Positions 6,728 through 59,319 of a DNA stretch of 64,000 nt are shown piece by piece; the stretch's first letter is position 1; each line of letters starts with the position of its first letter. Source of the stretch: Squalus acanthias. Its lineage: Eukaryota. The stretch spans positions 11,532,001 through 11,596,000 of the forward strand of contig CM059432.1 of the NCBI GenBank assembly GCA_030390025.1. The letters run 5' to 3'. A model generated the notes under the pieces. That model had not been told where the DNA came from, did not search any database, and saw only the letters and a list, made by a program, of their open reading frames with translations. The position numbers and the translations under genes were made by a program.

Positions 6728-7960
6728 TAGAAATCATAGAATCATAGACATTTACAGCACAGAAGGAGGCCATCCAGCCTATCGTGTCTGTGCCAGCCGA
6801 AAAAAAGCTATACAGCCTAATCCCACTTTCCAGCTCTTGATCCGTAGCCCTGTAGGTGATGGCACTTCAAGTGCATATCCAAGTACTTTTTAAATGTGAT
6901 GAGGGTTTCTGCCTCTACCACCCTTTCAGGCAGTGAGTTCCAGACCCCCACCACCCTCTGGGCGAAAAAAGTTCTCCTTAACTCCCCCTCTAATCCTTCT
7001 ACCACTCATTTTAAATCTATGCCCCTGGTTATTGACCTCTTTGCTAAGGAAAATAGGTCCTTCCTATCCACTCTATCCAGGCCCCTCATCATTTTATACA
7101 CCTCAATTAAGTCTCCTCTGTTCCAAAGAAAACAACCCCAGCCTATCCAATCTTGCAAGGGGGTTGGAGTACAAGAGTAAGGAAGTCTTACTACAATTGT
7201 ACAGGGCTTTGGTGAGACCACACCTGGAGTACTGTGCACAGTTTTGGTCTCCTTATCGGAGGAAGGAGATACTTGCCTTGGAGGCGGTGCAATTGAATGT
7301 TCACTAGATTGATCCCTGGGATGAGAGGGTTGTCCTATAAGGAGAGATTGAGTAGATTGGGCCTATACTCTCTGGAGTTTAGAAGAATGAGAGGTGATCT
7401 CATTGAAACATATAAGATACTGAGGGGGATTGACAGGGTAGATGCTGAGAGGTTGTTTCCCCTGGCTGGAGAGTCTAGAACTAGGGGGCATAGTCTCAGG
7501 ATAAGGGGTCGGCCATTTAAGACTGAGATGAGGAGGAATTTCTTCACACAGAGGGTTGTAAATCTTTGGAATTCTCTACCCCAGAGGGCTGTGGCTACTG
7601 AGTTATTGAGTATATTCAAAAGTGAGAAGTCTCACAACACCAGGTTATAGTCCAACAGCTTTATTTGAAATCACAAGCTTTTGGAGAGCTGCTCCTTCGT
7701 CAGGTGAAGTTATATTCAAGGCTGAGATGGATAGATTTTTGGACTCCAGGAGAATCAAGGGATATGGGGATCGGACGGGAAAATGGAGGTGAGGTCGAAG
7801 ATCAGCCGTGATCTTATTGAATGGCGGAGCAGGCTCGAGGGGCCAAACGGCCAACACCTGCTCCTAATTCTTAAGTTCTTATGTTCCTCATGGCTAAAAT
7901 TCTCCAGTCCTGGCAACACCCTCGTAAATCTTCTCTGTTCCCTCTCTAGTGCAATCACAG
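6728..7960. mobile_element. Nested CR1 cluster: minus CR1 (6728-7152 and 7885-7958) split by a plus CR1 (7153-7885)
   Basis: CR1 C-terminal ORFs on both strands; the minus copy resumes after the tail of the plus copy. Confidence 0.85.
7620..7710 (-). mobile_element. Short Penelope-like terminal fragment (family A) with a degenerate hammerhead motif
   Basis: Flanked by TSD tatattcaa (7611-7619 / 7711-7719) inside a CR1. Minus strand reads tcac-CTGACGA-a-ggagc...ctcc-AAAA-gctt-gtga, with the GAAA core mutated. Confidence 0.75.
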
Positions 7961-8039
7961 TGTTATGAGAGAATGTAGCAAACGGTGCAGTGTAGCGAGA
8001 GAATGTTGCAAATTATGCAGTGTAGCAAATGAGTGAAGA

Positions 8040-8700
8040 GAGAAATCGACGGGCGTTTGGACCACGTTGTATGATCTCTCTCTCTCTCTCTTTCTCCCAG
8101 GCATTGAAGAGCGAGTCATATGATTGGATTTAATAAGAAGCCGCTGCAAGAGGCTGGTGTGTGAATTGTGGAGATTCCAGTGTGGTGGAGGCGATGATGA
8201 TGATGATGCGGCTGGAGAAGATGATGATTCTCCTCTTATTCCTCCCCCCGATGGTTTAGGATTGATCCGGTGTTACAATCCCCCCTTTCCATTCCCAGCC
8301 AGAGCTGCTGAGACCATGGCAGAGCAATGCGCCCAGACCCCGGCGGCAGCCTCGGCAGCAGTCGAGCTGGACGCGCAGGAGCTGTCCCTGGAGCAGATTC
8401 TCAAGCTGTACAACCAGCCGCTGAACGAGGAGCAGGCGTGGGCCGTCTGCTACCAGTGCTGCGGCACTCTGCGGCGGCACCGGCGGCGGCGCCCACCCCC
8501 CGATCCCGCCGGGGACTGGCACCCGTTCTGGGGCAGGCTGAGCGGGGCCAGGGCGGTCATCCTGCACCGGGACGGCAACATCAGCATCCGAGCCGATTCA
8601 GGTATGAAATGCGCCGTGTTAATAAAGAGCTGAGTGTTCAGTAAAACCCCCCCAGATGGTCTTGACAAGAGGGGCAGGGTTAGCATCTCAGGCGCGCCAG
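8040..8700 (+). promoter_or_regulatory. CpG-rich first-exon / 5' UTR region of SPIRE1, with (TC)n at ~8074-8095 and (GAT)n at ~8193-8228
   Basis: High GC and CpG density over the coding exon relative to its flanks. Non-repetitive sequence directly after the TE cluster. The TSS cannot be determined from sequence. Confidence 0.55.
8316..8601 (+). CDS. SPIRE1: SPIRE1 (protein spire homolog 1) coding exon 1, N-terminal part of the KIND domain
   Basis: ATG at 8316 in a strong Kozak context (accATGg). Translation contains ELSLEQILKLYNQPLNEEQAWAVCYQCCGTL, matching the SPIRE KIND start; Y-N-Q-P and CYQCC fit SPIRE1 rather than SPIRE2. Ends in a phase-1 donor TCAG|gtatga (gt at 8602-8603). CpG-rich. 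Confidence 0.93.
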
Positions 8701-8742
8701 TTACATAAGAAATCTGTGTAGAAATAGATTAATAAACATTTA

Positions 8743-8907
8743 TAGAAATAATGTTTATTAATTTATTTCTAGAAATGTTTACTAATTTATTTTTAGATAT
8801 GTTTATTAATTTATTTCAAGAAATGTTTATTAATTTATTTCTAGAAATATTTATTTTATTTCCTGAAATGTTTATTAATTTATTTCCTGAAATGTTTATT
8901 AATTTAA
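8743..8907. repeat. AT-rich minisatellite, ~7 copies of a ~24-bp unit gaaatgtttattaatttatttc(t/c)
   Basis: Directly visible; explains the repetitive ORF MFINLFLE at 8751-8948. Confidence 0.9.
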
Positions 8908-9226
8908 CCATTAAACAAGAGGAATCCGCATCAATGCCTCTACTGTAAGAAAGGTTTGATTTAAACCCAGAATTAAATAAGTTAAGATAAGGTACTGTAG
9001 GAAATGGGTTCGGTAAATATATACAGTACTAGGTATAGAACAGGCAGGATTTATTCGGCAAATCCTCAAGTGCCAGTGTTTAAAAGAGGGAAAACAGATG
9101 GGAGACAAGAGTGGCTGGTTTGAAAGGCGAAGCGGATGGGGCGGCAGAATCAGCATTAACAAGAGGCCTCTGAAATTAACCCGGTGCCTGGTCCGGGAGC
9201 AAAAGACATCACATCGCAGGGAGGTG

Positions 9227-9234
<8 letters not shown>

Positions 9235-9257
<23 letters not shown>

Positions 9258-9260
9258 TAT
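9235..9260. repeat. (AT)n microsatellite
   Basis: Directly visible. Confidence 0.95.
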
Positions 9261-9924
9261 CTTTAAAAAAAAAGAAAGTGAAGTATTGAAAAATAAACCC
9301 CAAAAGAAAAATCAACAAAGCCGGAATAAATTGGTCCAGGCAGCACACAGCACAAGGGAGAGTCAATCGGCAGCCAGCTTTCATTGTGACAGCAAGATTA
9401 TTCCTGAGGCCGCAGCAATATCAGTCCCGCCTCGGTAAACAAGCTGGGAACTCGAGAGATGGGCAGGGAACAGTAAAAATAATAATAATCATCATTCATA
9501 AAAAAGAACAAAGACTGATAAATGGACCAGTAATAAGCAGGGTAAAAGTGGGGGAAATACCAATCATCTAATAAAGGCTTTAATTCAATTATTTTCAAAA
9601 AAAAATTAATTCAGAATAATAAGCTAATCCATCGGTTTTCAGTTCATGTAGAAACAGAGGACTGAATCGACAAATGACATAAAAACATCATTATTATTAT
9701 TATTCAGTCATCCTGATTCTAGGTAACAGCAGCCCCCTGTGTGTATTATGGGTAAAGCCACTCGTTTTCATGAGAAAAACAAACTGAATGCAGGAGTGGA
9801 TCTCCCTCCCCCAAACACTGGAATTCCCTGTAATAAAATCGGAATTTGACTCAGTAAATGACTGGCTCGGAACATAATTATTAACAACAGGCCGCCACAA
9901 GGCAGCCGGAAGTAGGAACATAAT

Positions 9925-10165
9925 AAAAGAAAGACTTGCATTTATATAGCGCCTTTCACGACCACCGGACATCTCAAAGCGCTTTACAGCCAATGAAATA
10001 CGTTTTTTTTTTAAGTGGAGTCACTGTTGTGGAAACGCGGCAGCCAATTTACGCACAGCAAGGCCCCACAAAAAGCAATGTGATAATGACCAGATAATCT
10101 GTTTTTATTATGTTGGATGAGCGATAAATATTGGCCCCAGGACACCGGGGAGAACTCCCTGGCTA
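9925..10165 (-). mobile_element. SacSINE1-like DeuSINE 3' half
   Basis: Reverse of the L2-type tail (aaaggcgctatataaatgcaagtc) plus Deu-domain sequence. Confidence 0.8.
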
Positions 10166-10394
10166 CAATAGCTACGACCTGTACTTTTATGGCATCTTTA
10201 ACATAGTAAAATTCACAGAAGTGGGGAAAGAAATAACTGGACAAGGAGCAGTCTTGGGATGGGTGGGGCGTTGGTGACTGAAGCGAAACTCAAAGAGATA
10301 GGTTTTAAGGAGTCTTTTAAGGAAGGAAGGAAGGTAGCAGTGGAGTGACAGGAGAAATGATGTAAAGGAGGGCAGAGTTGGAAGGAACAGAATT

Positions 10395-11130
10395 GGAATA
10401 TGGGAACTGGAGTAGGCCCTTGAGCCTGTTCCGTCATTCATTTACCTCGTGTACCTCAACTCCATTTACCCGCCTTCGTTCCACATCACTTGATACCTTG
10501 ACCCAACAAAAATCTATCTCTGTATTGAAAATTTCAATTGACCCCCCCCCGCCCCCCCCAGCATCCGCAGCCTTTTGGGGAGCGAGTTCCAGATCTCCAC
10601 CACCCCTTGTGTGGAAAAACTGTTTTCTAATTTCACTCCTAAATGGCCGAGCTCTAATTTTAAGATTATGGCCCCTTGTTCTGGATTTTGCCCATCAGAG
10701 GAAATAGTTTCTCTGTATCGACCCTATGGAATCTCTTAATCTTCTAAACTCAAGAGAAGACAGGCAAGTTTATGCAGCCTGTCCTCATAATTTACATAGA
10801 AACATAGAAAATAGGAGCAGGAGTAGGCCATTCGGCCCCTCGAGCCTGCTCCGCCATTAAATGTGATCATGGCTGATCATCCAAATTCAGTACCCTGTCC
10901 CTGCTTTCTCCCCATATCCCTTGGTCCCTTTAGCCTTAAGAAATATATCTAACTCCTTCTTGAATATATTTAATGAATTGGCCTCAACTGCCTTCTGTGG
11001 TAGAGAATTCCACAGGTTCACCACTCTCTGGGTGAAGAAATTCCTCCTCATCTCAGTCCTAAATGGCTTACCCCTTATCCTTAGACTGTGACCTCTTTAA
11101 GCTCTGGTATCATTCTGGTGAATCGGCGTT
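10395..11130 (-). mobile_element. Two nested CR1 3' fragments
   Basis: CR1 3' UTR hairpins at ~10400 and ~10795 with antisense RT C-terminal motifs. Confidence 0.8.
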
Positions 11131-11265
11131 GTATTCTTTTAATACCCTGGGGTGAAAACCATCAAGTTCTGGAGCTGTGTCTATCTGAAGTCCCATTATT
11201 TTCTCCATTACCATTTGTTTTAATTGTTAAATCCACTAAGTTCCTCCCCTTCACTTATTTTTTGG

Positions 11266-12950: not shown

Positions 12951-13349
12951 ATTCCCTTTACCACTTGTGCTATGCTGCTTCGCCCAGTCTATGTGAAAAT
13001 TAAAATCTCCCATTATAACCACTTTGTTTTTGCTATCAATATCGCTGTCCTTTCTAAAGATCTTAGCGACTGGAAGACTTAGCTTCTAATCGTGCTCCGG
13101 TTGTAGCCAGCCAGGTCTCTGGAATCGCTGCTACATCATACCTTTTAAGCCGAATTTGTGCTTCTAACTCACTTGTTTGATTTCTTATGCCACGTGCATT
13201 TGTGTACAGAGCCCTTATCTGGGTAACTGTTCCCACCCTGCTCTTATTAGCTGCTGGTCTTTTTTATCACACATTTTGACTTAAAGTGAGGATTTTCCCT
13301 CCCTTCCCCCCCCCCCCCCCCCCCCGCCCCCCAACTAGTTTAACTCTTA

Positions 13350-13667
13350 TGATAGCAAAATACTGCGGATGCTGGAAATCCGAAATAACAACAGAAAATG
13401 CTGGAAAAACTCAGCAGGCCAGGCAGCATCCGTGAAGAGAGAAACAGAGTTAACGTTTCAGGTCGAAGACCTTTCGTCAGAACTGGGAAAAAAGCAGGAA
13501 ATGAAATAGATTTAAAGCAAGGATAAAGCTGGGAAAAGGGGGAGGGGATGAAAGAACAAAAGGAGAGATTGAGAGACATTAAGAGATGATCAAGGCAAGA
13601 GGAGGAGTTAATGTGACAGGTTGAGGCTAAAAGAAGTGTGAAATGCACTGGCAGAATGAAGGACAGC
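13350..13667 (-). mobile_element. Penelope-like terminal fragment (family B) with hammerhead motif
   Basis: 13-bp TSD agtttaactctta (13337-13349 / 13668-13680). Shares cagaaaatgctgga...ctcagc...cagcatc...gagttaacgtttcaggtc with the copies at ~27200 and ~59210. Confidence 0.8.
13448..13484 (-). ncRNA. Minimal type I hammerhead ribozyme motif (family B, intact core)
   Basis: Minus strand: AGTT-CTGACGA-A-AGGTC-TTC-GACCT-GAAA-CG-T-T-AACT. Stem I AGTT/AACT, stem II AGGTC/GACCT, palindromic ACGT helix III, putative GUU cleavage triplet. Confidence 0.75.
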
Positions 13668-13699
13668 AGTTTAACTCTTACCCCACTGCCCTATTTACC

Positions 13700-14920: not shown

Positions 14921-15099
14921 TATTAGACAGCTCTTAAGCCTTGACTTGTGACTTTCTCCTGAGTTGGGTATGTAGATTCTGTGTTGTTATGGAAACTGGT
15001 TTAAAATGCCACGCGGCAGCTTCTTCTATATGGAGACTCTTCGCTAAGTGAGCATTGGTTGACATATGTGATTTATATAGAACTCTCCGGTTTATACAC

Positions 15100-16172: not shown

Positions 16173-16597
16173 GCTACTCTGAATGTGATTCACAGAATGT
16201 CTACCCTGCCGGATGACACACTATTATTTGTCGTACATCAGGACTATGCAAGTGCGACATCTCAGCGTGTTTCATTACTTCCCCCTCTCCTGAAGATGCT
16301 ATTAACTGGGTTATAGTCCCACAGGAAACGGCGGCCTCTCCAGTTGTTTTTGACCCAAATACTCTTCCTTGTTCATTAATCTAGATAGTGTCTTTTGGTG
16401 GGCTATTTGACAACAGAAGCATCATATTCAAATTAGATCCCACCCTCGGGCAACATCCACACAACATTCTGGCACGAGTAATCCTAGCGGATTTTTCCCA
16501 ACCCAGGGCATGAATGGCCAATTGTTGCCCGAGCTCCGATCAGCTATCTCATTACAGACCAGGGATTGAACCTGGGACCTCTGTTCTGTATATTCCC

Positions 16598-17445
16598 ACA
16601 TCTCACAACACACCGCGCCAACACCACACCGCATCACACAACACACCGCACCAACACGACACTCCACCCACGCTCACACCAACACCACAGCGCACCATGC
16701 CACACCCACACCACACCACACCAACACCACACTGTACCGTGCCACACCAACATCGCACCACACCGTATCACAGCACACCGCACCACACCAACACCACACC
16801 CACATCACACCACACTATACCGTACCACACCGTATCACAGCACACTGCACCACACCCACATCACAGCACACTGTACCGTACCACACCCACATCACAGCAC
16901 ACTGTACCGTACCACACCGTATCACAGCACACTGTACCGTACCACACCAACATCACACCACACTGTACCGTACCACACCCACATCACACCACACTGTACC
17001 GTACCACACCAACATCGCACCACACCGTATCACAGCACACCGCACCACACCAACACCACACCCACATCACAGCACACTGTACCGTATCACACCACACTGT
17101 ACCGTACCACACCAACACCACACCACACCACACTGTACCGTACCACACCACACTGTACCATACCACACCCACATCACACCACACTGTACCGTACCACATC
17201 AACATCGCACCACACTGTACCGTACCACACCAACATCGCACCACACCGTATCACAGCACACCGCACCACACCAACACCACACCCACATCACAGCACACTG
17301 TACCGTACCACACCACATCACACCACACTGTACCGCACCACACCACACTGTACCGTACCACACCCACATCACACCACACTGTACCGTACCACATCAACAT
17401 CGCACCACGCCAACACCACATCACATCACATCACATCACATCATA
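16598..17445. repeat. Complex pentamer-based simple repeat (CACAC / CACTG / TACCG / TACCA / CATCA units)
   Basis: Directly visible; generates the stop-free H/T/P-rich ORFs 16514-17512 and 16566-17516. Confidence 0.93.
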
Positions 17446-18179
17446 CATTTATTCCCAGGCTATTATGGGAGTTCCTGCTAATGTGTTTAATGGTTATATT
17501 GTCAAATCCTGAATGAGATGCTGTCAGATGTAAATCCAGCTCTGGACGATGAGCACCAGGTACATTGCATGTTATCTGATCTGCTTAAAGTCTAAAACAG
17601 GACTGCAGACTGTGACAGTAACTGTACGGGAGACAAGGCAACCTAGATTCCATGTAATTCTATGTATTCAGTGGGTCACAGAAGCAGCTGGAGAATAATA
17701 TACCGACAGTGTGCGCTGAACCACTCATAATGTGTGATGGGAGGAGCTGTAAATCAGAAGTGACAAGTGATCATACATTTATCATTACGTAATTAAACCT
17801 GTAATGGAAATGCCAGTGACTTTACATACAATATCCCATTTCTGCAGGCTGTCATTTTAAGAACATTGGCCTTTTGCCATGGGCTTGGAATTTAACCAAG
17901 GATGTTGCTGGCCTGTTCCCTTGGATGTTAAAACTGCTGTAATGGGAAGACCGTCGCACTGGCGCTCTGGAAGGATGAGAAACGATGGGCTGAAGGGCCT
18001 TCTTCGTTCGTACTTCCCTTGCGGCCAGTGACTTCCGTCGGGGATGAATGGTGCTTGCCGACAAATGAGTCCCATCACGTGTGCTGCAAGAAGCACGGCT
18101 GATGTACGGCGCAGACTGATGGGATTTGTCTTGTCAGTGGCAGCAGGGAATATGTCGGAAGAATCAGACTCTCACTTGG

Positions 18180-18180
<1 letters not shown>

Positions 18181-18227
<47 letters not shown>
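18181..18227. repeat. (CA)n microsatellite
   Basis: Directly visible. Confidence 0.95.
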
Positions 18228-18229
<2 letters not shown>

Positions 18230-18294
18230 TCATACAGACTTCTAATCCAAGTAACCAGGCTGAGAGCTCCTGCTGTGTACGGCTTAGTGCTAAA

Positions 18295-19970: not shown

Positions 19971-20009
<39 letters not shown>

Positions 20010-21029: not shown

Positions 21030-21868
21030 GCAAAATTCTTACAGGGCTTGACAGGGTAGATGCAGGGAGGATGATTCCCCTGGCTGAGGAGTCTAGAACC
21101 AGGGGTCACAGTCTCAGAATAAGGGGTCGGCCATTTAGGACTGAGATGAGGAAAATTTCTTCACTCAGAGGGTGGTGAATCTTTGGAATTCTCTACCCCA
21201 GAGGGCTGTGGAGGCTCAGTCGTTGAGTATATTCAAGACAGAGATCGATAGATTTTTGAATATTAAGGGAATCAAGGTATATGGGGATAGTTCAGGAAAG
21301 TGAAGATGAGGTAGAAGATCAGACTTGATCTCATTGAATGGCGGAGCAGGCTCGAAGGGCCAAATGGCCTACACCTGCTCCTATTTCTTATGTTCTTATG
21401 CTCTCATCTCTGTTTTCTGAACAAATACATAATAACATAAGAATTAGGAGCAGGAGTAGGCCATACGGCCCCTCGAGCCTGCTCCGTCATTCAGTAAGAT
21501 CATGGCTGATCTTTGACCTCAACTCCACTTTCTCGCCCGATCCCCATATCCCTTGATTCCCCTGGAGTCCAAAAATCTATCTATCTCAGCCTTGAATATA
21601 CTCAAAGACTCAGCATTCACAGCCCTCTGGGGTAGAGAATTCCAAAGATTCACAACCCTCTGAGTGAAGAAATTCTTCCTCATCTCAGTCTTAAATGGCC
21701 GACCCCTTATCCTGAGACTATGTCCCCTAGTTCTAGACACTCCAGTCCAGGGGAGACAACCTCTCAGCATCTACCCTGTCAATCCCTTTCAGAATCTTGT
21801 ATGTTTCAATGAGATCACCTCTCATTCTTCTAAACTCTAGAGAGTATAGGCCCAATCTACACAATCTA
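21030..21868. mobile_element. Tail-to-tail CR1 3' ends (plus 21030-21400, minus 21432-21868)
   Basis: Same-family 3' sequences in opposite orientation, about 30 bp apart. Confidence 0.87.
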
Positions 21869-21926
21869 TGATCTTGTTACCCGTTTGAAGATACATTCTC
21901 AGTCCTCTCTAACAGGTAAATTGTTG

Positions 21927-22073
21927 GGATCACAAGCTTTCGGAGCGCTGCTCCTTCGTCAGGTGAAGAAGGAGCAGGGCTCCGAAAGCTTGTGATTTCA
22001 AATAAAGCTGTTGGACTATAACCTGGTGTTGTGCGACTTCTCACTTTTGTCCAACACCGGCATCTCCGCATCA
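21927..22073. mobile_element. Penelope-like family A mini-insertion with an inverted 5' segment and hammerhead motifs
   Basis: 13-bp TSD aggtaaattgttg (21914-21926 / 22074-22086). Intact minus-strand motif at 21930-21966 (TCAC-CTGACGA-A-GGAGC-AGC-GCTCC-GAAA-GC-T-T-GTGA) abuts a 5'-clipped plus-strand copy. Confidence 0.82.
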
Positions 22074-22409
22074 AGGTAAATTGTTGTTCTGTACAGTAAC
22101 TTTACCTTGCATACAGGTGTGTCTCAGGTGTATTGCAATCCTGTGACCTTATCTGTAAACATTAGGATAGATTTGTACCTCGTAACCGGTGCCTGGAATG
22201 TGCTGGTGGAACCTGGCAGAAGTGGTATTTGCTGACGGTCAACACTGGCCACATACCAGCTGTAGACTGAATCTCGTAAAATCCGCTTCATGTTTCGGGC
22301 ACGGCGCACCTCACGAGCCAGAGCGTAGGAGCCAACCAGAGCTTTAGGTCTCTGTGTCCTTGTGTTCTGTCGTGATATTTTAATCCGGGGCTACTAAAGG
22401 ACCCACCCC

Positions 22410-26845: not shown

Positions 26846-27197
26846 GAAGAATGCTTTTATAGTGCCAGTCCACTCCCTTAGTCGATAATCAATACTTTCA
26901 TTCATAACTAATCTTCTATCGATAATTTAAAACGTCATATTTGGCACTCATTTCTTGCTCATCACGCTTCAAATATCACATTTAAATTCCTATATCATAC
27001 TTCAAAACAGTATAAAGAAGCAGAACAACTCTCTGGTGCCAGAATGTCTGCAGCCTCTATATTAACTTGCCCAATGTTTAATAATCAGCTGTCAAACTTT
27101 GTAGCTTTAAACAAGCACATACCTACATTTTTAACAGAAGAATGATACATTTTGTTTTACGTTATGTAACATTTCAGTCCGAATAAAGCCGTGAATC

Positions 27198-27322
27198 CTC
27201 TGAAATAAAACCAGAAAATGCTGGACACACTCAACATGTCCAGCAGCATCTGTCTCAATAGAGAGAGAGAGAGAGAAAAAAACAGAGTTAAAGTTTCAGG
27301 TCAATGACCTTTCATCAGCAAT
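27198..27322 (-). mobile_element. Penelope-like family B fragment with partly decayed hammerhead (27286-27322)
   Basis: Minus strand CTGATGA-A-AGGTC-ATT-GACCT-GAAA; stem I and helix III are degraded. Confidence 0.7.
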
Positions 27323-27743
27323 CTGCATCCTCTAACTTGCTGTGAGCAATGTCACAGGATATCTGCTCGTACATGCATGTATAAAAGTCATCCGTCCATC
27401 TAAATTCAGATGTCACATTTCAAAGTGGTTACCAAATAAATGGAGTCATTTTGTGCTGTTTTTGCCTCTTGATAAAGAAAGAACTTGCATTTCTATAGCG
27501 CCTTTCTCGACCTCCGGCCGTCCCAAAGCGCTTTTCAGCCACCTAAGTGCTATTGCAGTGTCGTCGCTGTTGTCATGGTGATAACCTGGTGTCCCTGCAG
27601 GGCAGGGGTGGGGCAGGAATCCCAGGAAGCTTCCAATCTACAGAAATGTCCTTCAGCGACTGCCCTCCAATTGATCTCAGGATGTCTTTATTTAAACAAC
27701 TTTCACACATGGAGTTCCTGAACAAAGGCCTTAAAGGGACAGG

Positions 27744-28113
27744 ATGTGGAGATGCCGGCGTTGGACTGGGGTGGACAAAAATGAGAAGTCGCACAACACC
27801 AGGTTATAATCCAACAGATTTATTTAATTTTACAAGCTTTCGGAGCTGTCGCTCCTTCCTCAGGTAAGTTAGCAGTGAGAGAATCTCCCAGAATTCACAA
27901 TTTAAACACAGACAAAATCTATTCAAATATTTCCCTACATCAAAGACACACTAAGAGCACAGCCAAGACAATGAGATGTGTCCCAAGGAAATTGTGAATT
28001 CTGGGAGATTCTCTCACTGCTAACTTACCTGAGGAAGGAGCGACAGCTCCGAAAGCTTGTAAAATTAAATAAATCTGTTGGACTATAACCTGGTGTTGTG
28101 CGACTTCTCATTT
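27744..28113. mobile_element. Palindromic Penelope-like family A element: 127-bp inverted arms around an 85-bp spacer
   Basis: Arms 27777-27903 and 27989-28115, with one mismatch seen. 13-bp TSD ttaaagggacagg / ttaaagagacagg (27731-27743 / 28114-28126). Confidence 0.85.
28025..28062 (+). ncRNA. Minimal type I hammerhead ribozyme motif, sense to the SPIRE1 pre-mRNA (mirror copy on minus at 27830-27867)
   Basis: TTAC-CTGAGGA-A-GGAGC-GACA-GCTCC-GAAA-GC-T-T-GTAA. Stem I TTAC/GTAA covaries with TCAC/GTGA in other copies. Confidence 0.75.
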
Positions 28114-28540
28114 TTAAAGAGACAGGCCAGCCTCCTCAGCATCAAAACCAGGCTCCAGAATTCAAACTACCTGTGAGCAGTGACACAGGGAGATTAGCTA
28201 GTATTTAAAATCAACGCACTAAATGTGTCTTTTGTTTAAGGAGAGTGGTCTGCCACCTGTACGGAAAATCAGCCTGTCTGAAAGGTTGGAAATCCAGTGA
28301 CGCCTCTTACCACTGTATCTGTTTTGTGGCGATTTTTAGAATTCTAAATCCCCACATCATCGCTGTGCAATGAATCTCATTTTCTGTCCTACTTAAACCA
28401 GTCTGTCATCGTAATGTTTTTGAATCTAGGTTAGACCATCTGAGCCGGCCACAGCTAAAGCAAATGCAAGCTGATAGAGAGAGCCCGTGTTCCCATCCAG
28501 CCTTGCTGACTCTGCACGACCAGTGGAACTAGACAATAAT

Positions 28541-31639: not shown

Positions 31640-33820
31640 AAACTATCCATCCTTGACCCCTCTGCCCATGCGCACTACTACCCAATCTCCATTTCCTTTC
31701 CAAAGTCCTTGAATGTGTTGTCAACTCCCAAATCCGAGCCCATCTTTCCTGCAGTTCCATATTTGAATCTCTCCAATCAGGTTTCTGCCCCTGCCACAGC
31801 AACAAAATGGCCCTAACCAAAGTCACAAATGACATCCTCTGTGACTATGACCATGGTGCATTAGCCCTTCTCAACCTCTCTGCAGCCTTTGACATGGTCA
31901 ACTATACCCTCCTCCTCCCAACAGCTCCCTTCCAATGTCCAGCTCAGTAGGACTATCCTCGCTTGGTTCTACTTTTACTAGAGTATCTCCGGCAATGGCT
32001 TCCCTTCCCACCCCCGCCCATTATCTCTGGAGTTCCCCCCCAAGGATCTTGGCCTCCTCCTCTTCCTCATCTACATGCTGCCACTTGGCGACATCATCTG
32101 TGGACACAGGGGGTCAGCGTCTACATCTATGCTGATGAAACCCAGCTATACCGCTCCACAATCTCTTTCGATCCCTCCACTGCCTTTATATTTTGAGACT
32201 GTTTATCTGACATCCAGTCTTGTCTGAGCCACAATTCCTTCAACTAAATATTAGCGAGACCAAAGCCATCGTCTTTGGCCCCCAGCACAAACTCCGTATC
32301 CTTACTACTTCCAACTCCGTAACATCGCCCGTCTCCGCCCCTGCCTCAGCTCATCCGCTGCTGAAACCCTCATCCATGCCTTTTGTTAACTCTAGACTTG
32401 ACTATTCCAACGCACTCCTGACTGGCCTCCCACATTCCACCCTACGTAAACTTGAGGTCATCCAAAACTGGGCTGCCCGTGTCCTAACTCGCACCAAGTC
32501 CCGTTCACCCATCACCCCTGTGCTCGCTGACCTACATTGGCTCCCGGTTAAGCAGCGCCTCGATTTCAAAATTCTCATCCTTGTTTTCAAATCCCTCCAT
32601 GGCCTCGGCCCTTCCTATCTCTGTAATCTCCTCCAGCCCCCCCCCCCCCCCCCCCCCCCCCCCCCGAGATATCTGCGCTCCTCTAATTCTGCCCTCTTGA
32701 GCATCTCTGATTATAATCGCTCAACCTTTGGTGGCCGTGCCTTCTGTTGCCTAGGTCCTAAGCTCTGGAATTCCCTGCCTAAACCTCTCCGCCTCTCTAC
32801 CTCTCTTTCCTCCTTTAAGACGCTCCTTAAAACCTACCTCTTTGACCAAGCTTTTGGTCACCTGCCCTAATTTATCCTTATGTGGCTCGGTGTCGAATAT
32901 GTTGTCTTAAAATACTCCTGTGAAGCGCCTTGGGACGTTTTACTACATTAAAGGCGCTATATAAATACAAGCTGTTGTTGTTACCACCGATTCCAACCCC
33001 CTCCCTAGCCACTGTCTCAAGCTGACCAGAATGTTCGCAATCTCGGCGCCCTATTCGACCCTGAGCTGATCATTTTTTTAAATCCATTCACGGGACGTCG
33101 CTGGCAAGGCCAGCATTTATTGCCCGTCCCTAACTGCCCTTGAGAAGGTGGTGGTGAGCCGCTCCTATATCCTCTCCACCGCCAAGGCTGCCTGTTTCCA
33201 CCCCCCCCCCCCCCCCGGAACATCGTCCGCCTCTGCCCCTCAGCTGCTGAAGCTCACCCGTGCCTTTCTCCCATCCAGACTCGACTATTCCAACGCTCTC
33301 TTGGCCGGCCTCCCATTGTCGACCCTCCTGTAAACTTCAGCACCTCCAACACTCTGCGAGCCGTATCCTATCCAGCACCAAGTCCCGCTCACCCGTTAGT
33401 CCTGTCCTCCGCTGATCTACTTTGGTTCCCAGTCCCCCTAATGCCTCAGATTTAACATTCTCACACTTGTGCTTACATTCCAACAGGACCTTGCTTTACC
33501 CTATCTCTGTAATCTCCTCCTGCCCTGCAAACTCTCCATGCCTCTGACTCGGGCCTCTTGGGCGGCCATGCCTTCAGCTGCCTAGGTCCAACAGTTTGAC
33601 ATTCTTTCCATAAATCCCTCTGCCTCTCCACCTCCCCGCTGCTCCTTTTCAGACCCTCTTTAAAGCCCATCTCTTCAGCCAAGCTTTTGGTTACCTTTCC
33701 TACTATCTCCTTCTTTGGCTGACATTCATTTTTTTCCTTAAGCCTTACTGAAGTGCCTTGGAGGGGCGTTTCCTTTTGATAAAGGCACTATATAAATGCA
33801 AGATGTTGTTGTTGTTGTGT
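31640..33820 (+). mobile_element. L2 LINE, old copy with a younger L2 3' end (~32305-32983) nested
   Basis: GVPPQGS, YADETQLY, LQLNISETKAIVF, SRLDYSNALL, ITPVLADLHWLPV and FKTLLKTYLF motifs; two (ttg)n tails. Confidence 0.87.
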
Positions 33821-42019: not shown

Positions 42020-42717
42020 AGCCCTACAACCCTCCGAGATCTCTGCACTCCTCCAATTCTGGCCTCTTGCGCATCCCCGATTTTAATCGCTCCACCATTG
42101 GTGGCTGTGCCCTCAGCTGCCAAGTCCCAAAGCTCTGGAATTCCTTCCCTAAACTCTCCGCCTCTCTGCCTCTCTCTCCTCCTTTAAGACGCTCCTTAAA
42201 ACCTACCTCTTTGACCAAGCTTTTGGTCATCTGAGCTAATATCTCCTTATGTGGCTCGGTGTCCAATTTTGGTTGATAATGCTCCTGTGAAGCGCCTTGG
42301 GACGTTTTACTATGTCAACAACAACAACAACTTGTATTTATATAGCACCTTTTAACGTAAAACTTCCCAAGGTGCTTCACAGGAGTATTATAAGACACAA
42401 AATTTGACACCGAGCCACATAAGGAGAAATTAGGGCGGGTGACCAAAAGCTTGGTCAAAGAGGTAGGTTTTAAGGAGCGTCTTAAAGGAGGAAAGAGAGG
42501 CAGAGAGGTTTAGGCAGGGAATTCCAGAGATTAGGGCCTAGGCAACAGAAGACACGGCCGCCAATGGTTGAGTGATTATAATCAGGGATGCTCAAGAGGG
42601 CAGAATTAGAAGGATGCAAATATATATCTTGGGGGGGGTGGGTGGTTGTGGGGCTGAAGGAGATTACAGAGATTGGGAGGGGTTAAAGGCGCTATATAAA
42701 TACATGTTGTTGTTGTC
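42020..42717. mobile_element. Plus L2 3' end with a minus L2 3' end (42316-42682) inserted in its tail
   Basis: The host tail resumes at ~42683 (taaaggcgctatataaat...gttgttg). Confidence 0.85.
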
Positions 42718-46060: not shown

Positions 46061-46093
46061 ATCATGCAAAGCAACATTAAACTGCCCTGTCGT

Positions 46094-52315: not shown

Positions 52316-53342
52316 TTTAATTATCATACTTACAGCAGGAATATACGGGGCGCGTTTGGTGCTTTCCTCGGGCCCCGATAGTTTACCATGATTTGCGCCC
52401 ATTTTTTTTTTTAACGTTCTGGCATACGTTAATCAGATTGGCAGGAAATTTGGGTGTAAATAGACATCGGCAAACTGGCCGCACGAACACGCGTAATTTA
52501 GGGTGTAACTTCCCGATTACGTCCCCCCGCCCCCGCCACAGGAAATTTCATCCCCTTGTGTCTAATTTCAGGAAAAACCTTCGGGAAACCTCTTTCCAAC
52601 TCCACAGGCGAGAGTTTCCTCGGCCTTCGCCCAGGCTCGCTGGATCACGTGGGCCCAGTGGATAAGGAGAATAGTGCGGCCAGAGTGCATGCCTGTAAAA
52701 GGAAGCCACTCGATTTTCCGACTGCTTAATTTAAATGGGGCGTAAATTGGGTGGGCTCCTTTGCAGGTGTGCACTCCGACTGCCTAAATCTCCGATATTT
52801 GCTGCACCTCAACAATCCAGTGCAGCGTGACGCAGATCCAGAAAAGTCTCCCCTCATAAGTCAACTCAGCAAGCTCCAGGAGACCATAGTTGCCCGTGAT
52901 CACTAGGCAAACCTAATTTACTGATACGTCCCCAGTGTTCTCCTCACTCGGGAACCTGTCCAATCCCTTCTTAAAGGTATGTAGTTTATTCGTCTCATCC
53001 AGCAAGAACCATTTGGCAGAAAATAAATACTTCCTGGTACCTGACCTGGCTCTTTGCCAACATACCTTAACCAGCCACCACCTTAAGCATTCACTCCCTC
53101 CACCACCGGCGCACCGTGGCTACAGTGTGTACCATCTGCAAGATGCACTGCAGCAACTCGCCAAGGCTTCTTCGACAACACCTCCTAAACCCACGACCTC
53201 TACCACCTAGAAGGACAAGGGCAGCAGGCGCATGGGAACACCACCACCTCCAAGTTCCCCTCCAAGTCACACACCATCCTGACTTGGAAATATATCGCCG
53301 TTCCTTCATCGTCGCTGGGTCAAAATCCTGGAACTCCCTACC

Positions 53343-55497
53343 TACTTCCTCTAGGGCATAAAAACCCAAAAGGAAAAGTGATCCAACCATGGCTAACAAA
53401 AGAAATTAAAGCTAGTATTAAGTCAAAGGAGGAAGCTTATAAAGTTGCCAGAAAAAGCGGTCAGCCTGAGGATTGGGATCTTCTTAGAAATCAGCAAAGG
53501 GGGACCAAGAAATTGATAAAGAAAGAGAAAATGGAATATGAGCACAAACTAGCAAAAAATATAAAAACGGATTGTAAAAGCTTCTATAGGTATGTGAAAA
53601 GGAAAAGACTGGCGAAGGTAAATGTAGGTCCTTTACAGTCAGAGACGGGAGAATTTATAATGTGGAATGAGGAAATGGCAGAGAAATTAAATAAATACTT
53701 TGTTTCTGTCATCACGGAGGAAGACACAAAAAACCTCCCAGAAATACGAGAAAACCAAGGGTGTGGTGAGAATGAGGACAATGCTCGGCACAACATCGAG
53801 GGCCGAAGGGCCTGTACTGTGCTGTACTGTTCTATGTTCTATGTTAACTTAAAAGAAATTACTATTAGTATAAAAACAGTACTAGCAAAATTAATGGGAC
53901 TAAAAGTCGATAAATCCCAAGGACCAGATGACCTACATCCTAGGGTTTTGAAAGAGGTGGCCATTGAGATAGTGGACGCATTGGTTGTCATCTTCCAAAA
54001 TTCTATAGATTCTGGAATGGTTCCTGCAGATTGGAGGATAGCAAATGTAACCCCGCTATTTAAGAAAGGCGGGAGAGAGAAAACGGGAAACTACAGACCT
54101 GTTAACCTCACATCAGTAGTTGGGAAAATGCTGGAATCTATTATAAAGGATGCAATAACTGGGCACTTAGAAACTAATAGTAAGATTGGGCAGAGTCAAC
54201 ATGGATTTATGAAAGGGAAATCCTGTTTAACAAAGCTATTGGAGTTCTTTGAGGATGTAACTAGTGGAGTAGACAAAGGGGAACCTGGTAGATGTGGTGT
54301 ATCTGGCTTTTCAGAAGGCCTTCGATAAGGTCCCACACAAGAGGTTGGTGAACAAAGTTAGGGCACATGGAATTGGGGGTAATATACCAGCATGGATTGA
54401 GAATTGGTTAACAGACAGAAAACAAAGAGTAGGGATAAACGGGTCTTTTTCAGGATGGCAGGCTGTGACTAGTGGGGTACTGCAAGGATCGGTGCTTGGG
54501 CCCCAGCTATTCACAATCTATATCAATGATTTGGATGAGGGGACTAAATGTAACATTTCCAAATTTGCTGATGATACAAAGCTAGGTGGCAGTATCAGTT
54601 GTGAAGAGGATGTGAAGAGGCTTCAAGGGGATCTCGACAGGCTCAGTGAGTGGGTGAGAAATGGCAGATGGAATATAATGTGGATAAATGTGAAGTTATC
54701 CACTTTGGTAGAAAAAACAGAAAGGCAAAGTATTTCTTAAATGGTGAAAGATTGGGGAATGCAGATGCTCAAAGGGACCTGGGTGTCCTTGTACATGAGT
54801 CACTGAAAGTGAATGTGCAGGTGCAGCAAGCCATTAGGAAGGCAAATGGTATGCTGGCCTTCATTACAAGAGGATTTGAGTACAGGAGTAAAGAAGTCTT
54901 ACTCCAATTATATAGGGTCTTGGTGAGACCACACCTGGAGTACTGTGTACAATTTTGGTCTCCTTAGCTAAGGAAGGATATACTTGCCATAGAGGGAGTG
55001 CAACGAAGGTTCACGAGATTGATTCCTGGGATGGCGGGACTGTCGTATGAGAAGAGATTGAGTAAACTAGGCCTGTATTCTCTTGAATTCAGAAGAATGA
55101 GAGGGATCTCATTGAAGCATACAAAATTATTACAGGGCTTGATAGGGTGGATGCTGGGAGAGTGTTTCCCTTGGCTGGGGAGTCTAGAACCAGGGGCCAC
55201 AGCCTCAGGATAAAGGGTAGGCCATTCAGGACTGAGATGAGAAGAAATTTCTTCACACAGAGAGTGGTGAATCTTTGGAATTCTCTACCCCAGAGGGCGG
55301 TGGAGGCTCAGTTATTGGGTATATTCAAAACAGAAGTCGATAGATTTCTGACTAGTAAGGGCATCAAGTGATATGGCGATAGGGCTGGTGAATGGAGTTG
55401 AGGCAGAAGATCAGCCATGATCTCATTGAATGGCGGAGCAGACTCGAAGGGCCGAATGGCCGACTCCTGCTCCTATTTCTTATGTTATTTATGTTCT
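53343..55497 (+). mobile_element. CR1 LINE, ~2.1 kb 5'-truncated and frameshifted, with a small CR1-tail insert at ~53780-53845
   Basis: ORFs 53378-54328, 54294-54740, 54650-54967 and 55147-55371. Nested in another LINE 3' end (53085-53342 / 55497-55645). Confidence 0.92.
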
Positions 55498-56009
55498 AAC
55501 AGCGCTGTGGGAGTACCTTCACCACACGGACTGCAGCGGTTCAAGAAGGCGGCTCATCACCATCTTCTCAAGGGAAATTGGGGATGGGCAATAAATGCTG
55601 GCCTTGCCAGCGACGCCCACATCCCAGGAACGAATAAAAAAAATACCGGCCCTGCCTTGATTTGCGCTATCATTTCGCATTGTAGATATTTTTTGCAAAT
55701 CTTAACACATCCAAACCTTTCATAACTTTAAAAACCTCCAATCCGATCCCGTCTGAACCTATGAATGGAAACTTCCTCGGAGATGCTCTTGTTCCGGCAT
55801 TGTAATTTTGCTGGAAGTGCTGGCATGCCCAGTTTCTGGCGCTTTTCCGGTGAAGTTACGGCGGTGGAGCGGGAACGGCTCCTGAAGAAATTCCTGGCCT
55901 ATGCTTCCGCAAAAAGTGAGCAACAGCTCCCCATTTTAAATAGTGGCCAAAGTCTTCACACCTTTCATTCTGAGTTGATGCATATTGAAAATTAGTGCCC
56001 AGCAGGGTG

Positions 56010-56468
56010 TCAAAAAGAAAGACTTGAATTTATATAGCGCCTTTCACGACCACTGGACATCCCACAGCGCTTTGCAGCCAATGAAGCATTTTTTGAAGTG
56101 CAGTCACTGTTGTAATGTAGGAAACGCAGCAGCCAACTTGCGCACAGCAAGCTCCCACAAACAGCAATGTGATAATGACCAGATAATCTGTTTTTAGTGA
56201 TGTTGGTTGGGGGATAAATATTGGCCAGAACACCGATGATAACTCCCCTGCTCTTCTTCGAAATAGTGCCGTGGGATCTTTTACGCCCACCTGAGAGAGC
56301 AGACGGAGCCTCGGTGTAACGTCTCATCCGAAAGACGGCACCTCCGACAGTGCAGCACTCCCTCAGCACTGCACTGGGAGTGTCAGCCTGGATTTTTGTG
56401 CTCAAGTCTCCAGAGTGGGACTTGAACCCACAACCTTTTGACTCAGAGCCACGGCTAACACTGCTGTC
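56010..56468 (-). mobile_element. SacSINE1-like DeuSINE
   Basis: B box, Deu domain and tail on the minus strand. Confidence 0.88.
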
Positions 56469-56599
56469 AGTGGGATTCCTTGTCACATGCAGTATTTAGA
56501 TCGCTAATTTTTTTTTCTAGAGTGTGAGAGGCACATTTATTTGTATTACTAAAATAATAATAATGGGAAAGAAGGTCACTTTGTTTTGAATGCATGGGA

Positions 56600-57410
56600 T
56601 ATGAGAGGTTTTTGATGGATTAGATAGGGAGAAACTGTTTCCACTGGCAGGGGAGTGGGTCGGCAACTAAAGGACACAGATTTAAGATAATTGGCAAAAA
56701 ATCCAGGGCGGTGGTGGGGGGGGGGGGGGGGGGTGGTGGGGGGGTGGGGGGGGGAGGATATTGGGAGAATTTATTTATTTTACACAGCAAGTTGTCGTGA
56801 TCTGGACCGCATTGCCTGGAAGGTTGGTGGAAGCAGAATCAATTTCAAAAGAGAATTGGATAAATACTTGAAAAGGAGAAACTTGGACTAATTGGAGAGC
56901 TCTTTCAAAGAGCCGGCACAGTCACAATGGGCCGAATGGCCTCCTTCTGTGCTGTATGGTTCGATGATATTAATAGGAGAGCGCTTCCCTGCTGCTTGGA
57001 AACTCTTGACATTTCAGGCCAGCCAGGAGGAAGTTGGGCAAGGTCTTCAAATTAACATAGAAACATAGAAGAGCAGGAGTAGGAGTCGGCCATTCGGCCC
57101 TTCGAGCCTGCTCCGCCATTCAATACGATCATGGCTGATCATAGGACAGAAATGAGGAGGAATTTCTTCACCCAGAGAGTGGTGAACCTGTGGAATTCTC
57201 TACCACGGAAGGCAGTTGAGGCCAATTCATTAAATATATTCAAGAAGGAGTTGGATATATTTCTTAAGGCTAAAGGGATCAAGGGATATGGGGAGAAAGC
57301 AGGGACAGGGTACTGAATTTGGATGATCAGCCATGATCGCATTGAATGGCGGAGCAGGCTCGAGGGGCCGAATGGCCTACTCCTGCTCCTATCTTCTATG
57401 TTTCTATGTG
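56600..57410. mobile_element. CR1 3' fragments (plus 56600-56970; minus tail 57055-57141 fused to plus 57142-57410)
   Basis: CR1 3' UTR hairpins and the FFTQRVV motif. Confidence 0.8.
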
Positions 57411-58024
57411 TCTAGAACATGGATCAGACACTCGGCACAGGCCAGCAGGTGTGACAGCCTCCACCAGGCTGAGTCAAACCAGCTCAACTGGCAGCCGCAC
57501 ATTCCTGAGTGTAGACCAACCTACGCGAGTGAAACCCTGTTCAACCGAAATGCTCCCAAATGAAATTTCCGAGTAATCGAATGAGGAGAATGCACCCCGC
57601 CCTTTTATATAAATAGCTCAAGTCATCTAATGCTGTGTTGTCTGTCACGGAACTTGAAAAGTCAGCTTTTTGTTTTGCCTCGAGAACTGAAGACATATCT
57701 GTGGTTCGCCAGAAATAGGTTTCCGATCTGATAACAAAGGTGCAGAGCTCAATTCACTTTCATTGAAATCCGAGCCCCCATGAATCTATACCAGGAAACG
57801 TGTGTGGGATGTCAAACTGTAGCTCTTTAATGAACTATTGATAGGCACCTCCAGTAGGCTGATTGCGTAGATCCTTTATTAGCCTCTGCAGGTACCCAGC
57901 AGCAGGTACTTAATCAGATCTGAAAACCACCGTGAAACTAGATATATTCTTGACGTATATTTTTGCTAGGTTCATAATTTGCAGCAGTCTCGTGAAACTT
58001 TTATTTATCACAAATATAACTATA

Positions 58025-59085
58025 GTGTCAGCCAGTGGCTCAGTGGGTAGCACCCTCGCCTCTGAGTCAGAAGGTTGTGGGTTCATAGCCCCACTCCAGA
58101 GACTTGAGCACAAAAGTCTAGGCTGACACTCCCAGTGCAGTACTGAGGCAGTGCTGCACTGTCGGAGGTGCCGTCTTTCAGATGAGACTTTAAACTGAGG
58201 CCCCTGTCTGCTCTCTCAGGTGAATGTAAAAGATCCCATGGCATTATGGGGATTAAAGCAGGATTTGGATGATCAGCCATGATCGTATTGAATGGTGGAG
58301 CAGGCTCGACGGGCCGAATGGCCTACTCCTGCTCCTAGATTCTATGTTTCTATGTTTCTATATTATTTCGAAGAAGAGCAGGGGAGTTATCTCCGGTGTC
58401 CTGGCCAATATTTATCTCTCAATCAACATCACTAAAACTGATTATCTGAGATTAGATTGGCAGCTAACATAAAATGGAATCCAAAAGCCTTCTGTAGGCA
58501 TATAAATAATAAACGGGTAGGAAGAGAAGGGATGGGGCCGATTAGGGACCAAAATGGAGACCTGCATATGGAGGCAGAGGGCATGGCTGAGGTACTAAAT
58601 GAGTACTTTGCATCTGTCTTTACCAAGAAAGAAGATGCTGCCAAAATCATAGTGAAAGAGGAGGTAGTTGAGATACTGGATGGGATAAAAATTGATAAAG
58701 AGGAGGTACAAGAAAAGCTAGCTGTACTTAAAGTAGGTAAGTCACCAGGACCAGATGGGATGCATCCTAGGATGCTGAGGTAAGTAAAAATGGAAATTGC
58801 GGAGGTACTGGCCATAATCTTCCAATCCCCCTTAGATACAGGGGTAGTGCCAGAGGACTGGAGAATTGCAAATGTTACACCCTTGTTCAAAAAAGGGTGT
58901 AGGGATAAACCCAGCAACTACACGCCAGTCCGTTTAACCTCGGTAGTGGGGAAGCTTTTAGAATCGATAATGCGGGACAAAATTAACAGTGACTTGGACA
59001 AGTGTGGATTAATTAAGGAAAGCCAGCACGGATTTGTTAAAGGCAAATCGTGTTTAACCAGCCTGATTGAGTTTTTTGTTGTGGT
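58025..59085 (+). mobile_element. DeuSINE (58025-58450, split by a CR1 tail at ~58250-58360) followed by a CR1 internal fragment (58450-59085)
   Basis: SINE boxes; ORFs 58457-58783 and 58790-59113 (KSPGPDGMHP, QHGFVKGKSCLT). Confidence 0.83.
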
Positions 59086-59206
59086 AACTGAGCTGTTAAT
59101 TCTATGTAACTAGTCAGCTTCTCTGCTCACTGATAATTCAATTTCAATCTGAGACTAAGAACCTGAACTTCCAGACCTCCAGAAATACTTCACAGCCTTT
59201 GAATTG

Positions 59207-59319
59207 TTTTAAAAAAAAATAAAAACAGAAAATGCTGGAAACGCTCAGCGGGTCAGGCAGCATCCGTGGAGAGAGAAACAGAGTTAACGCTTCAGGTCGA
59301 AGACCCTTCGTCAGAACTT
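59207..59319 (-). mobile_element. Penelope-like family B fragment with hammerhead motif (59282-59318, GAAA mutated to GAAG)
   Basis: TSD-like tttgaattg on both sides. Minus strand AGTT-CTGACGA-A-GGGTC-TTC-GACCT-GAAG-CG-T-T-AACT. Confidence 0.75.

What the first reader, a model, noticed from the sequence alone, without database searches (positions are those of the whole stretch)
7620..59319. Two families of hammerhead-bearing Penelope-like mini-insertions with covarying stems
Seen: six loci (7620, 13350, 21927, 27198, 27744, 59207) share CTGAnGA-A-stem II-GAAA-NN-T-T. Stem I covaries (TCAC/GTGA, TTAC/GTAA, AGTT/AACT) and stem II covaries (GGAGC/GCTCC, AGGTC/GACCT). Helix III is a 4-nt palindrome (AGCT or ACGT). 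All have an extra A after A9 and a U at the cleavage position (CUU or GUU). Established: palindromic helix III in minimal hammerheads allows dimeric cleavage, and an extra nucleotide after A9 occurs in a natural viroid hammerhead. Inference: about one motif per 10 kb here suggests a very large genomic ribozyme load in this shark.
Basis: partly seen in the sequence, partly recalled or inferred. Interest (0 to 1): 0.7.

Follow-up and report, generated by a model that had tools for sequence, protein, structure and literature searches.

The report
Shark Penelope stubs with minimal hammerheads
These short repeats are terminal stubs of very abundant Penelope-like jumping genes in a shark-type genome and carry a small hammerhead RNA motif of an already published kind; most are mutated or predicted to fold shut, and many start at the motif's front edge, likely because copying ran off the start of the element's RNA.

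Summary
The motifs are real: six insertions between target-site duplications hold seven hammerhead-shaped motifs plus a partial eighth arm (4 strict-descriptor hits versus none in 200 shuffles). Only 4 of 7 are intact. Three of those are predicted to be locked in fold-back hairpins, so about one motif per 64 kb is intact and free, not one per 10 kb. Family A is tied to a shark reverse transcriptase + GIY-YIG polyprotein of Neptune type through two outside sequences. Family B could not be tied to an ORF, but shows the Penelope signature of two 3' ends 28 nt apart. Extra nucleotide after A9, palindromic helix III, U at the cleavage site, thousands of copies and inverted pairs were all published for Penelope-like elements in 2014, so this is a new member of a known kind. 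One feature goes beyond the papers read: 4 of 8 arms, and hundreds of family B copies in public contigs, start a few bases before the core rather than at the cleavage site. This suggests run-off copies of an uncut transcript. This scan already noted that idea elsewhere in this genome and in other shark-type genomes. Activity was not tested.

The parts
7620..7710 (-). Family A stub, 91 bp, no tail, inserted in the end of a CR1-type LINE; starts 7 nt before C3
   Evidence: 9-nt duplication at 7611-7619 and 7711-7719; junctions
7671..7707 (-). Minimal hammerhead with G12 changed to A and one broken stem II pair; predicted inactive
13350..13667 (-). Family B copy, 318 bp: pyrimidine-rich upstream region, hammerhead, 3' part with tail (about 13350-13381)
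   Evidence: 13-nt duplication at 13337-13349 and 13668-13680; 3' loose ends pile at 13354 and 13382
13448..13484 (-). Intact minimal hammerhead, family B; the only intact motif not inside a fold-back; predicted cut after 13452
21927..22073 (.). Family A head-to-head insertion: inverted arm 21927-21968 (minus) joined to a direct arm 21968-22073 (plus) that starts inside the core and ends in a shortened tail
   Evidence: 13-nt duplication at 21914-21926 and 22074-22086
21930..21966 (-). Intact minimal hammerhead, family A, predicted locked in the fold-back; arm starts 6 nt before C3
27202..27323 (-). Older family B stub with decayed hammerhead (27286-27322); starts 5 nt before C3
   Evidence: imperfect 10-nt duplication at 27192-27201 and 27324-27333
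27744..28113 (.). Family A (second subfamily) inverted pair: left arm 27744-27988 (minus) with tail, right arm 27990-28113 (plus) without tail; 125 of 126 nt identical
   Evidence: 13-nt duplication with 1 mismatch at 27731-27743 and 28114-28126
27830..27867 (-). Intact minimal hammerhead, left arm, predicted locked in the hairpin
28025..28062 (+).
59207..59319 (-). Family B stub, 113 bp, no tail; hammerhead 59282-59318 with A15.1 changed to G; starts 5 nt before C3
   Evidence: 9-nt duplication at 59198-59206 and 59320-59328

Best explanation
The six loci are short insertions of the hammerhead-bearing terminal repeat of shark Penelope-like retrotransposons, most likely made when the element's enzyme cut AT-rich DNA, started copying inside an uncut RNA at one of two nearby sites, and ran off the RNA's front end just ahead of the ribozyme. 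Shown: duplications of 9-13 nt, two 3' ends about 30 nt apart, head-to-head arms with the tail on one side, the ribozyme-shaped motif, family A's position behind an RT + GIY-YIG ORF, and the clustering of 5' ends a few bases before C3. Taken from the anole element (PMC11167929): internal priming at two sites, need for ORF sequence downstream of the tail, use of unprocessed RNA, protein-assisted cleavage. Inferred: the transcript starts at the ribozyme's front edge, so priming at the front tail gives a stub of roughly 90-145 bp that keeps the whole motif; longer arms (13350, 27744) would come from priming at the rear repeat with ordinary 5' truncation. In the parent RNA the motif would cut slowly, as a dimer through the 4-nt palindrome; in the stubs it is likely passive baggage. 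Identity as Penelope-like stubs about 0.9 (family A 0.95, family B 0.85); the run-off step about 0.55.
For: Duplications at all 6 loci, 4 perfect and 2 with one mismatch. Two 3' ends in public contigs: family B 13354 (264 and 447 contigs in runs X1, X2) and 13382 (156, 231); family A 27743 (101, 125) and an inner end at 27772 or its mirror 28110 (24 and 56 in X1; 67 in X2). ORF link: locus L001 has a family A-like motif 209 nt behind a peptide matching the C-terminus of P0130 (E 7e-12); P0130 has RVT_1 (5e-9), DKG, CX4CxxC and Y..YIG motifs; shark protein P0139 runs from the endonuclease (93 of 109 identical to P0130) into a translation of the family A ribozyme and tail (E 2e-6 to 9e-6 against three window loci). 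5' ends: 4 of 8 arms start 5-7 nt before C3 (simulated chance 0.0004 if uniform, 0.013 if steeply exponential). Family B contigs with long, diverse, AT-rich flanks end at 13482-13483 (133 in X1; 153 and 201 in X2) and no pile is listed at the cleavage site 13451-13452. No arm in the window starts at the cleavage site (0 of 8).
Against: No RNA start was observed; contigs cannot show one. Family B has no ORF link (negative) and the window holds no Penelope ORF fragment. Only 24 of 1076 loose-end rows were shown and 24 of 533, and alignment trimming or subfamilies with other upstream sequence can shift or inflate such piles (the ends at 13485-13491 are at least partly of that kind). For family A the contig evidence for a 5' pile is thin (7 and 4 contigs at 28027). 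An extra G, expected from copying a cap, is seen at 1 of 3 duplication-defined 5' ends. An initiator-like word sits at the family B edge, but such words occur 7 times in 183 nt upstream, and none sits at the edge of the window's family A copies. In D. virilis the transcript starts at 371 and C3 is at 496, if both papers count on the same record, so a start at the ribozyme edge is not general.
Confidence: 0.6

Rival explanations
1. Same elements, but all stubs come from priming at the rear repeat, and the enzyme tends to stall or let go just after passing the folded or protein-bound ribozyme, so the 5' peak marks a roadblock and not an RNA start.
For: Heavy 5' truncation is typical of these elements (PMC8557442); one arm starts inside the core and three extend 39-187 nt upstream; no RNA start shown.
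Against: The ends fall after the structure has been copied through, within a 3-nt band in two unrelated families. The anole protein needs ORF sequence downstream of the tail, which a rear repeat would lack unless another copy follows (PMC11167929).
Confidence: 0.22
2. The stubs are a separate non-autonomous family (SINE-like or retrozyme-like) copied from short master RNAs or self-cleaved circles, borrowing the Penelope enzyme.
For: Defined ends and very high copy number; rare tandem joins of 100 and 131 nt in contigs; animal retrozymes are reported to derive from these terminal repeats (10.64898/2026.07.22.740005).
Against: None of the 6 loci is a direct tandem array; no arm starts at the cleavage site; stubs are colinear with longer arms that run into the ORF's downstream region.
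Confidence: 0.1
3. The motifs are an active genome-wide ribozyme load that cuts host pre-mRNAs, possibly kept by selection.
For: 4 of 7 cores intact; core positions show no variant at 10% or more in family B contigs apart from N7; the three single-arm copies downstream of the KIND exon are all antisense to it, as avoidance would predict (n = 3, not significant).
Against: 3 of 7 decayed; 3 of 4 intact ones predicted locked in hairpins; single minimal motifs showed no cleavage and dimers low cleavage in vitro (PMC4209133); the anole motif needs the element's protein (PMC11167929); young age explains the conservation.
Confidence: 0.06
4. The motifs are chance look-alikes in repeats unrelated to Penelope-like elements.
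For: The bare pattern is not enriched; Rfam finds no hammerhead.
Against: 4 strict hits against 0 in 200 shuffles; fit to the published minimal consensus; ORF link for family A.
Confidence: 0.02

Closest known systems
Minimal hammerheads (min-HHR) in terminal repeats of metazoan Penelope-like elements (Cervera and De la Pena 2014, PMC4209133; main text parts 1-2 of 4 and supplement parts 1-2 of 3 read)
   Same: Type I topology, short helix I, extra nucleotide between 9 and 10.1, palindromic helix III, U17 in many listed examples, U-rich upstream flank, several covarying families per genome, mostly solo copies, opposite-strand pairs 100-700 bp apart, thousands per genome (about 4,000 coelacanth, 9,000 Xenopus).
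   Different: No cartilaginous fish found in the supplement file searched (one of its files could not be searched). Family B often has A10.1-U11.1 in place of G-C. Density here would extrapolate to far more copies. The 5' end cluster is not described in the parts read.
Neptune/Nematis-type endonuclease-bearing Penelope-like elements (PMC8557442 passages; PMC3846280 part 1 and passages)
   Same: RT followed by a CX2-5CxxC linker and GIY-YIG domain (family A partner P0130); inverted 5'-truncated arm, 30-40 bp tail on one end, 9-13 bp duplications.
   Different: Here only ORF-less stubs are present; clade placement rests on the linker motif, no tree was built; family B's ORF is unidentified.
Poseidon element PAc of Anolis carolinensis (PMC11167929, parts 1-2 of 4 read)
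   Same: Two adjacent priming sites that define the tail, AT-rich targets, uncleaved RNA as template.
   Different: Different clade; its ORF starts inside the ribozyme, whereas no such start codon is evident in these motifs; the passages read do not describe stubs with a fixed 5' end.
Non-LTR retrozymes of animals (10.64898/2026.07.22.740005, part 1 of 5 and passages)
   Same: Type I hammerheads, non-coding, related to Penelope terminal repeats, reported in one chondrichthyan.
   Different: Retrozymes are defined by tandem arrays; these loci are dispersed single or head-to-head insertions with tails and duplications.

Membership tests
min-HHR of metazoan PLEs | Core CUGANGA, GAAA and UH with stems I and II | tested here: met
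   4 of 7 motifs fully; 2 with one core change; 1 without stem I
min-HHR of metazoan PLEs | [quoted passage not shown] | tested here: met
   7 of 7; described in PMC4209133
min-HHR of metazoan PLEs | Palindromic helix III allowing a dimer | tested here: met
   5 of 7; self-duplex only -1.7 to -2.5 kcal/mol
min-HHR of metazoan PLEs | G10.1-C11.1 pair | tested here: inconclusive
   Met in family A; family B has A-U (2 copies) or G-U (1); both also occur in published rows
min-HHR of metazoan PLEs | Self-cleavage as dimer or with protein help | not testable with these tools
   Needs a cleavage assay
EN+ Penelope-like elements | Terminal repeat lies behind an RT + GIY-YIG ORF (family A) | tested here: met
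   L001 and P0139 link to P0130. GIY-YIG Pfam scores are just under the cut-off (best E 2.5e-4, 3 of 12 members)
EN+ Penelope-like elements | Terminal repeat lies behind an RT + GIY-YIG ORF (family B) | tested here: inconclusive
   No hit in weak searches; no genome was held
EN+ Penelope-like elements | Optional 30-40 bp tail (two 3' ends) | tested here: met
   28 nt in family B, about 29-39 nt in family A; tail on one arm only at 27744-28113
EN+ Penelope-like elements | Inverted 5'-truncated arm and target-site duplication | tested here: met
   2 of 6 loci inverted; duplications at 6 of 6, two imperfect
Neptune/Nematis clades | CX2-5CxxC linker before the endonuclease | tested here: met
   P0130 residues 505-513; family A partner only
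Neptune clade | Placement in an RT phylogeny | not tested
   No reference Penelope proteins were in hand
Non-LTR retrozymes | Tandem direct repeats each with a complete hammerhead | tested here: not met
   0 of 6 loci; only rare tandem joins in contigs

The most novel reading that the evidence does not exclude
The stubs are a fossil record of a strong-stop-like step in Penelope replication: the transcript starts at the ribozyme's front edge, the enzyme primes at the front tail and runs off the RNA's 5' end, and a jump to an RNA 3' end made by the rear ribozyme would rebuild a full element with the ribozyme core as its terminal redundancy; the tens to hundreds of thousands of stubs would be aborted jumps.
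Probability: 0.3. Interest if true: 0.6.

Novelty: new member of a known kind. Interest (0 to 1): 0.3.

Why it matters
As ribozymes these are expected: they extend a published family to sharks, at a density that may exceed the counts published for other vertebrates. The useful part is the insertion geometry. How Penelope-like elements rebuild their terminal repeats, and what the ribozyme is for, is open. A very large set of stubs with fixed 3' ends and a likely fixed 5' end makes the question testable from genome data plus one 5' RACE experiment.

Tried and rejected
Rfam scan: no hammerhead family among 12 matches. Bare-pattern enrichment: not significant. Pattern scans: 0 in viral contigs, 0 in prokaryote genomes, 1 in metagenomes. 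Protein search with the L001 frame that mixes bacterial and endonuclease residues returned mostly the bacterial host protein family. Family B translation found no relatives (atlas scores 0.87 or less). P0130 found no locus in viral contigs and no solved relative better than E 0.49. The structure model of the endonuclease region was too poor to search (mean pLDDT 41). A profile of 10 family A partner proteins found no ORF fragment in the window. A covariance model built on the motifs found only its own training copies and the partial arm at 21957-22002; three further matches at E 0.4-2.8 were taken as chance. The folding lines mis-parsed the loop for 5 of 8 motifs and were redone; only the shuffle counts are used. 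The runs guessed as RNA (X7, X14) cover the part downstream of the cut site more deeply than the core, relative to DNA runs; contig depth cannot show cleavage, so this was set aside. A splice-acceptor reading of the family B edge was rejected because duplications and AT-rich flanks, not a constant exon, abut the 5' ends. Luense et al. on dimer cleavage could not be read; only its title and a review's summary were seen.
Full report
Observation. All six loci are present. A descriptor requiring the core, stem II and stem I finds 4 motifs (C3 at 13480, 21962 and 27863 on the minus strand, 28029 on the plus strand) and, with one core mismatch allowed, two more (7703, 59314). The seventh (27318) keeps the core boxes but has lost stem I pairing. 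The strict count of 4 compares with 0 in each of 200 dinucleotide shuffles, whereas the bare pattern is not enriched (11 against 6.8). Rfam does not recognise the motifs. A covariance model built from these seven and one outside motif finds in addition only a partial arm at 21957-22002. All 7 have the extra A after A9 and U17; 5 of 7 have a palindromic helix III. On an alignment of 7 distinct rows, 60 of 63 stem cells pair and 7 of 9 pairs change on both sides, above shuffled and slid controls for pairing and score. The rows come from about four lineages and the register was chosen by hand, so this illustrates covariation and does not prove it.

Anatomy. Each locus is an insertion between target-site duplications of 9-13 nt, four perfect and two with one mismatch. 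Four are single arms of 91, 318, 122 and 113 bp. Two are head-to-head pairs (21927-22073, 27744-28113); in the larger one the arms are 125 of 126 nt identical and only the left arm carries a 3' extension of about 33 nt. The rest of the window is rich in LINE fragments and holds a KIND-domain exon on the plus strand near 8315-8600 (that this is a Spire gene is my recall). No whole genome was held, so I laid Logan contigs of 4 of the 20 runs listed on two loci. Family B shows two piles of 3' ends, 13354 and 13382; family A shows 27743 and an inner end 29-39 nt away. This is the optional tail described for Penelope-like elements (PMC8557442, passages; PMC3846280, part 1 and passages) and explained by two priming sites in the anole element (PMC11167929, parts 1-2 of 4). 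Summed depth over the motifs is about 70,000 to 1,700,000 times that of a unique flank; allowing up to 31-fold overcounting gives a floor of roughly 2,000-55,000. The tool warns that this is no copy number, so I take only that both families are very abundant.

Link to an ORF. One metagenome contig (L001) matched a joint pattern of both families. It holds a family A-like motif and downstream sequence, 209 nt behind a frameshifted peptide. That peptide retrieved P0121, which retrieved 25 proteins, most of them named shark records. P0130 has an RT domain (E 5e-9), DKG, a CX4CxxC linker and a Y..YIG motif; relatives score GIY-YIG just under the cut-off (3 of 12 members). A predicted shark septin isoform, P0139, begins with this endonuclease (93 of 109 residues identical to P0130) and continues into a translation of the family A ribozyme and tail that matches three window loci at E 2e-6 to 9e-6. 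Family A is thus the terminal repeat of an RT + GIY-YIG element with the linker that marks Neptune and Nematis; no tree was built. For family B every search for an ORF was negative but weak, and the window has no ORF fragment of the family A partner. Its assignment rests on the tail, the duplications and the motif.

Are the motifs likely to work where they sit? Three of seven are damaged. Three of the four intact ones lie in fold-backs predicted at -243 and about -72 kcal/mol on the strands folded. The remaining one (13480) is antisense to the KIND exon, has no same-family partner within 13 kb, and is predicted to prefer a competing helix (stem I probability 0.43). Published tests found no cleavage by a single minimal motif and low cleavage by dimers (PMC4209133), and the anole motif cleaves only with the element's protein. 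Motif density (one per 9 kb, range 4-23) therefore overstates any working load.

What goes beyond the papers read. Four of 8 arms start 5-7 nt before C3 and none at the cleavage site (simulated chance 0.0004 under uniform truncation, 0.013 under a steep exponential). In contigs, family B copies with long, diverse, AT-rich flanks end at 13482-13483 in numbers of the same order as the 3' ends (133 against 264 and 156 in X1; 153 and 201 against 447 and 231 in X2), and no pile is listed at the cut site; only 24 of 1076 rows were shown. The simplest reading is that the template was uncut and began at the ribozyme's edge: priming at the front tail, where the downstream protein-binding sequence is complete, would run off the RNA's start and leave a stub. 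I noted this, before looking up earlier notes. Against it: no RNA start was observed; an extra G appears at 1 of 3 duplication-defined ends; initiator-like words are too common upstream to count; family A's contig evidence is thin; and in D. virilis the start lies about 125 nt before C3, if PMC2377424 (parts 1-2 of 4) and the table in PMC4209133's supplement count on the same record. A search for Penelope with untemplated, capped, strong-stop or run-off listed 16 of 18 papers, none on this point by title or abstract start; searches listed no paper on shark Penelope hammerheads. Subscription papers and repeat databases were not searchable, and shark Penelope-like repeats as such are known (10.1101/443036, passages). 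Earlier unreviewed notes of this scan describe the same cap run-off idea in this genome and in others; they are not independent support, and one reports arms starting at the cut site, which I did not see here.

Comparison and verdict. The extra nucleotide, the palindrome, many families per genome, solo copies, opposite-strand pairs and counts in the thousands are in PMC4209133, and its alignment lists many U17 examples. The loci are not retrozymes, since none is a tandem array (10.64898/2026.07.22.740005). Verdict: real, a new member of a known kind, with one testable mechanistic lead. Interest 0.3.

Noticed in passing
window 8315-8601 (+): Coding exon with a KIND domain (Pfam E 1e-20), ending at a GT donor; likely the first exon of a Spire gene (gene name recalled). 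No second exon was found with short motifs.
   Followed up: partly
window 5680-5805 (+): Decayed stretch resembling the 3' part of family B (74% over 62 nt); no recognisable hammerhead in the model search.
   Followed up: partly
window 21154-21674: Two CR1-type LINE ends joined tail to tail, 247-nt arms 27 nt apart, giving spurious microRNA hits in Rfam.
   Followed up: no
window 42247-42420: Another hairpin-forming inverted repeat of about 175 nt (weak Rfam microRNA hit), possibly a MITE or a paired SINE.
   Followed up: no
window 16500-17500: About 1 kb minisatellite built of 25-31-nt units.
   Followed up: no
window 61263-62643 (-): Long open frames of an RT-encoding LINE (RTE-like by recall); other LINE RT fragments at 1085-2107, 4096-4743, 32211-32870 and 53189-54740.
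   Followed up: no
L001 520-1000: A shark-like Penelope end (endonuclease C-terminus, downstream region, hammerhead) sits inside an otherwise bacterial-looking marine metagenome contig, interrupting a bacterial ORF; most likely a chimeric assembly, not tested.
   Followed up: partly
P0139, P0131, P0132, P0142 (named shark records): Several predicted shark host proteins (septin 5a, XRCC5, PPP1R12A-like, follistatin-related 5 isoforms) include Penelope endonuclease pieces: exonised insertions or annotation artefacts.
   Followed up: no
window 13430-13436 (-): Family B has a pyrimidine tract followed by CAG-ATG in most contig copies just downstream of the ribozyme, resembling a splice acceptor with a start codon; the frame through the tail is open in the 13350 copy.
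   Followed up: partly
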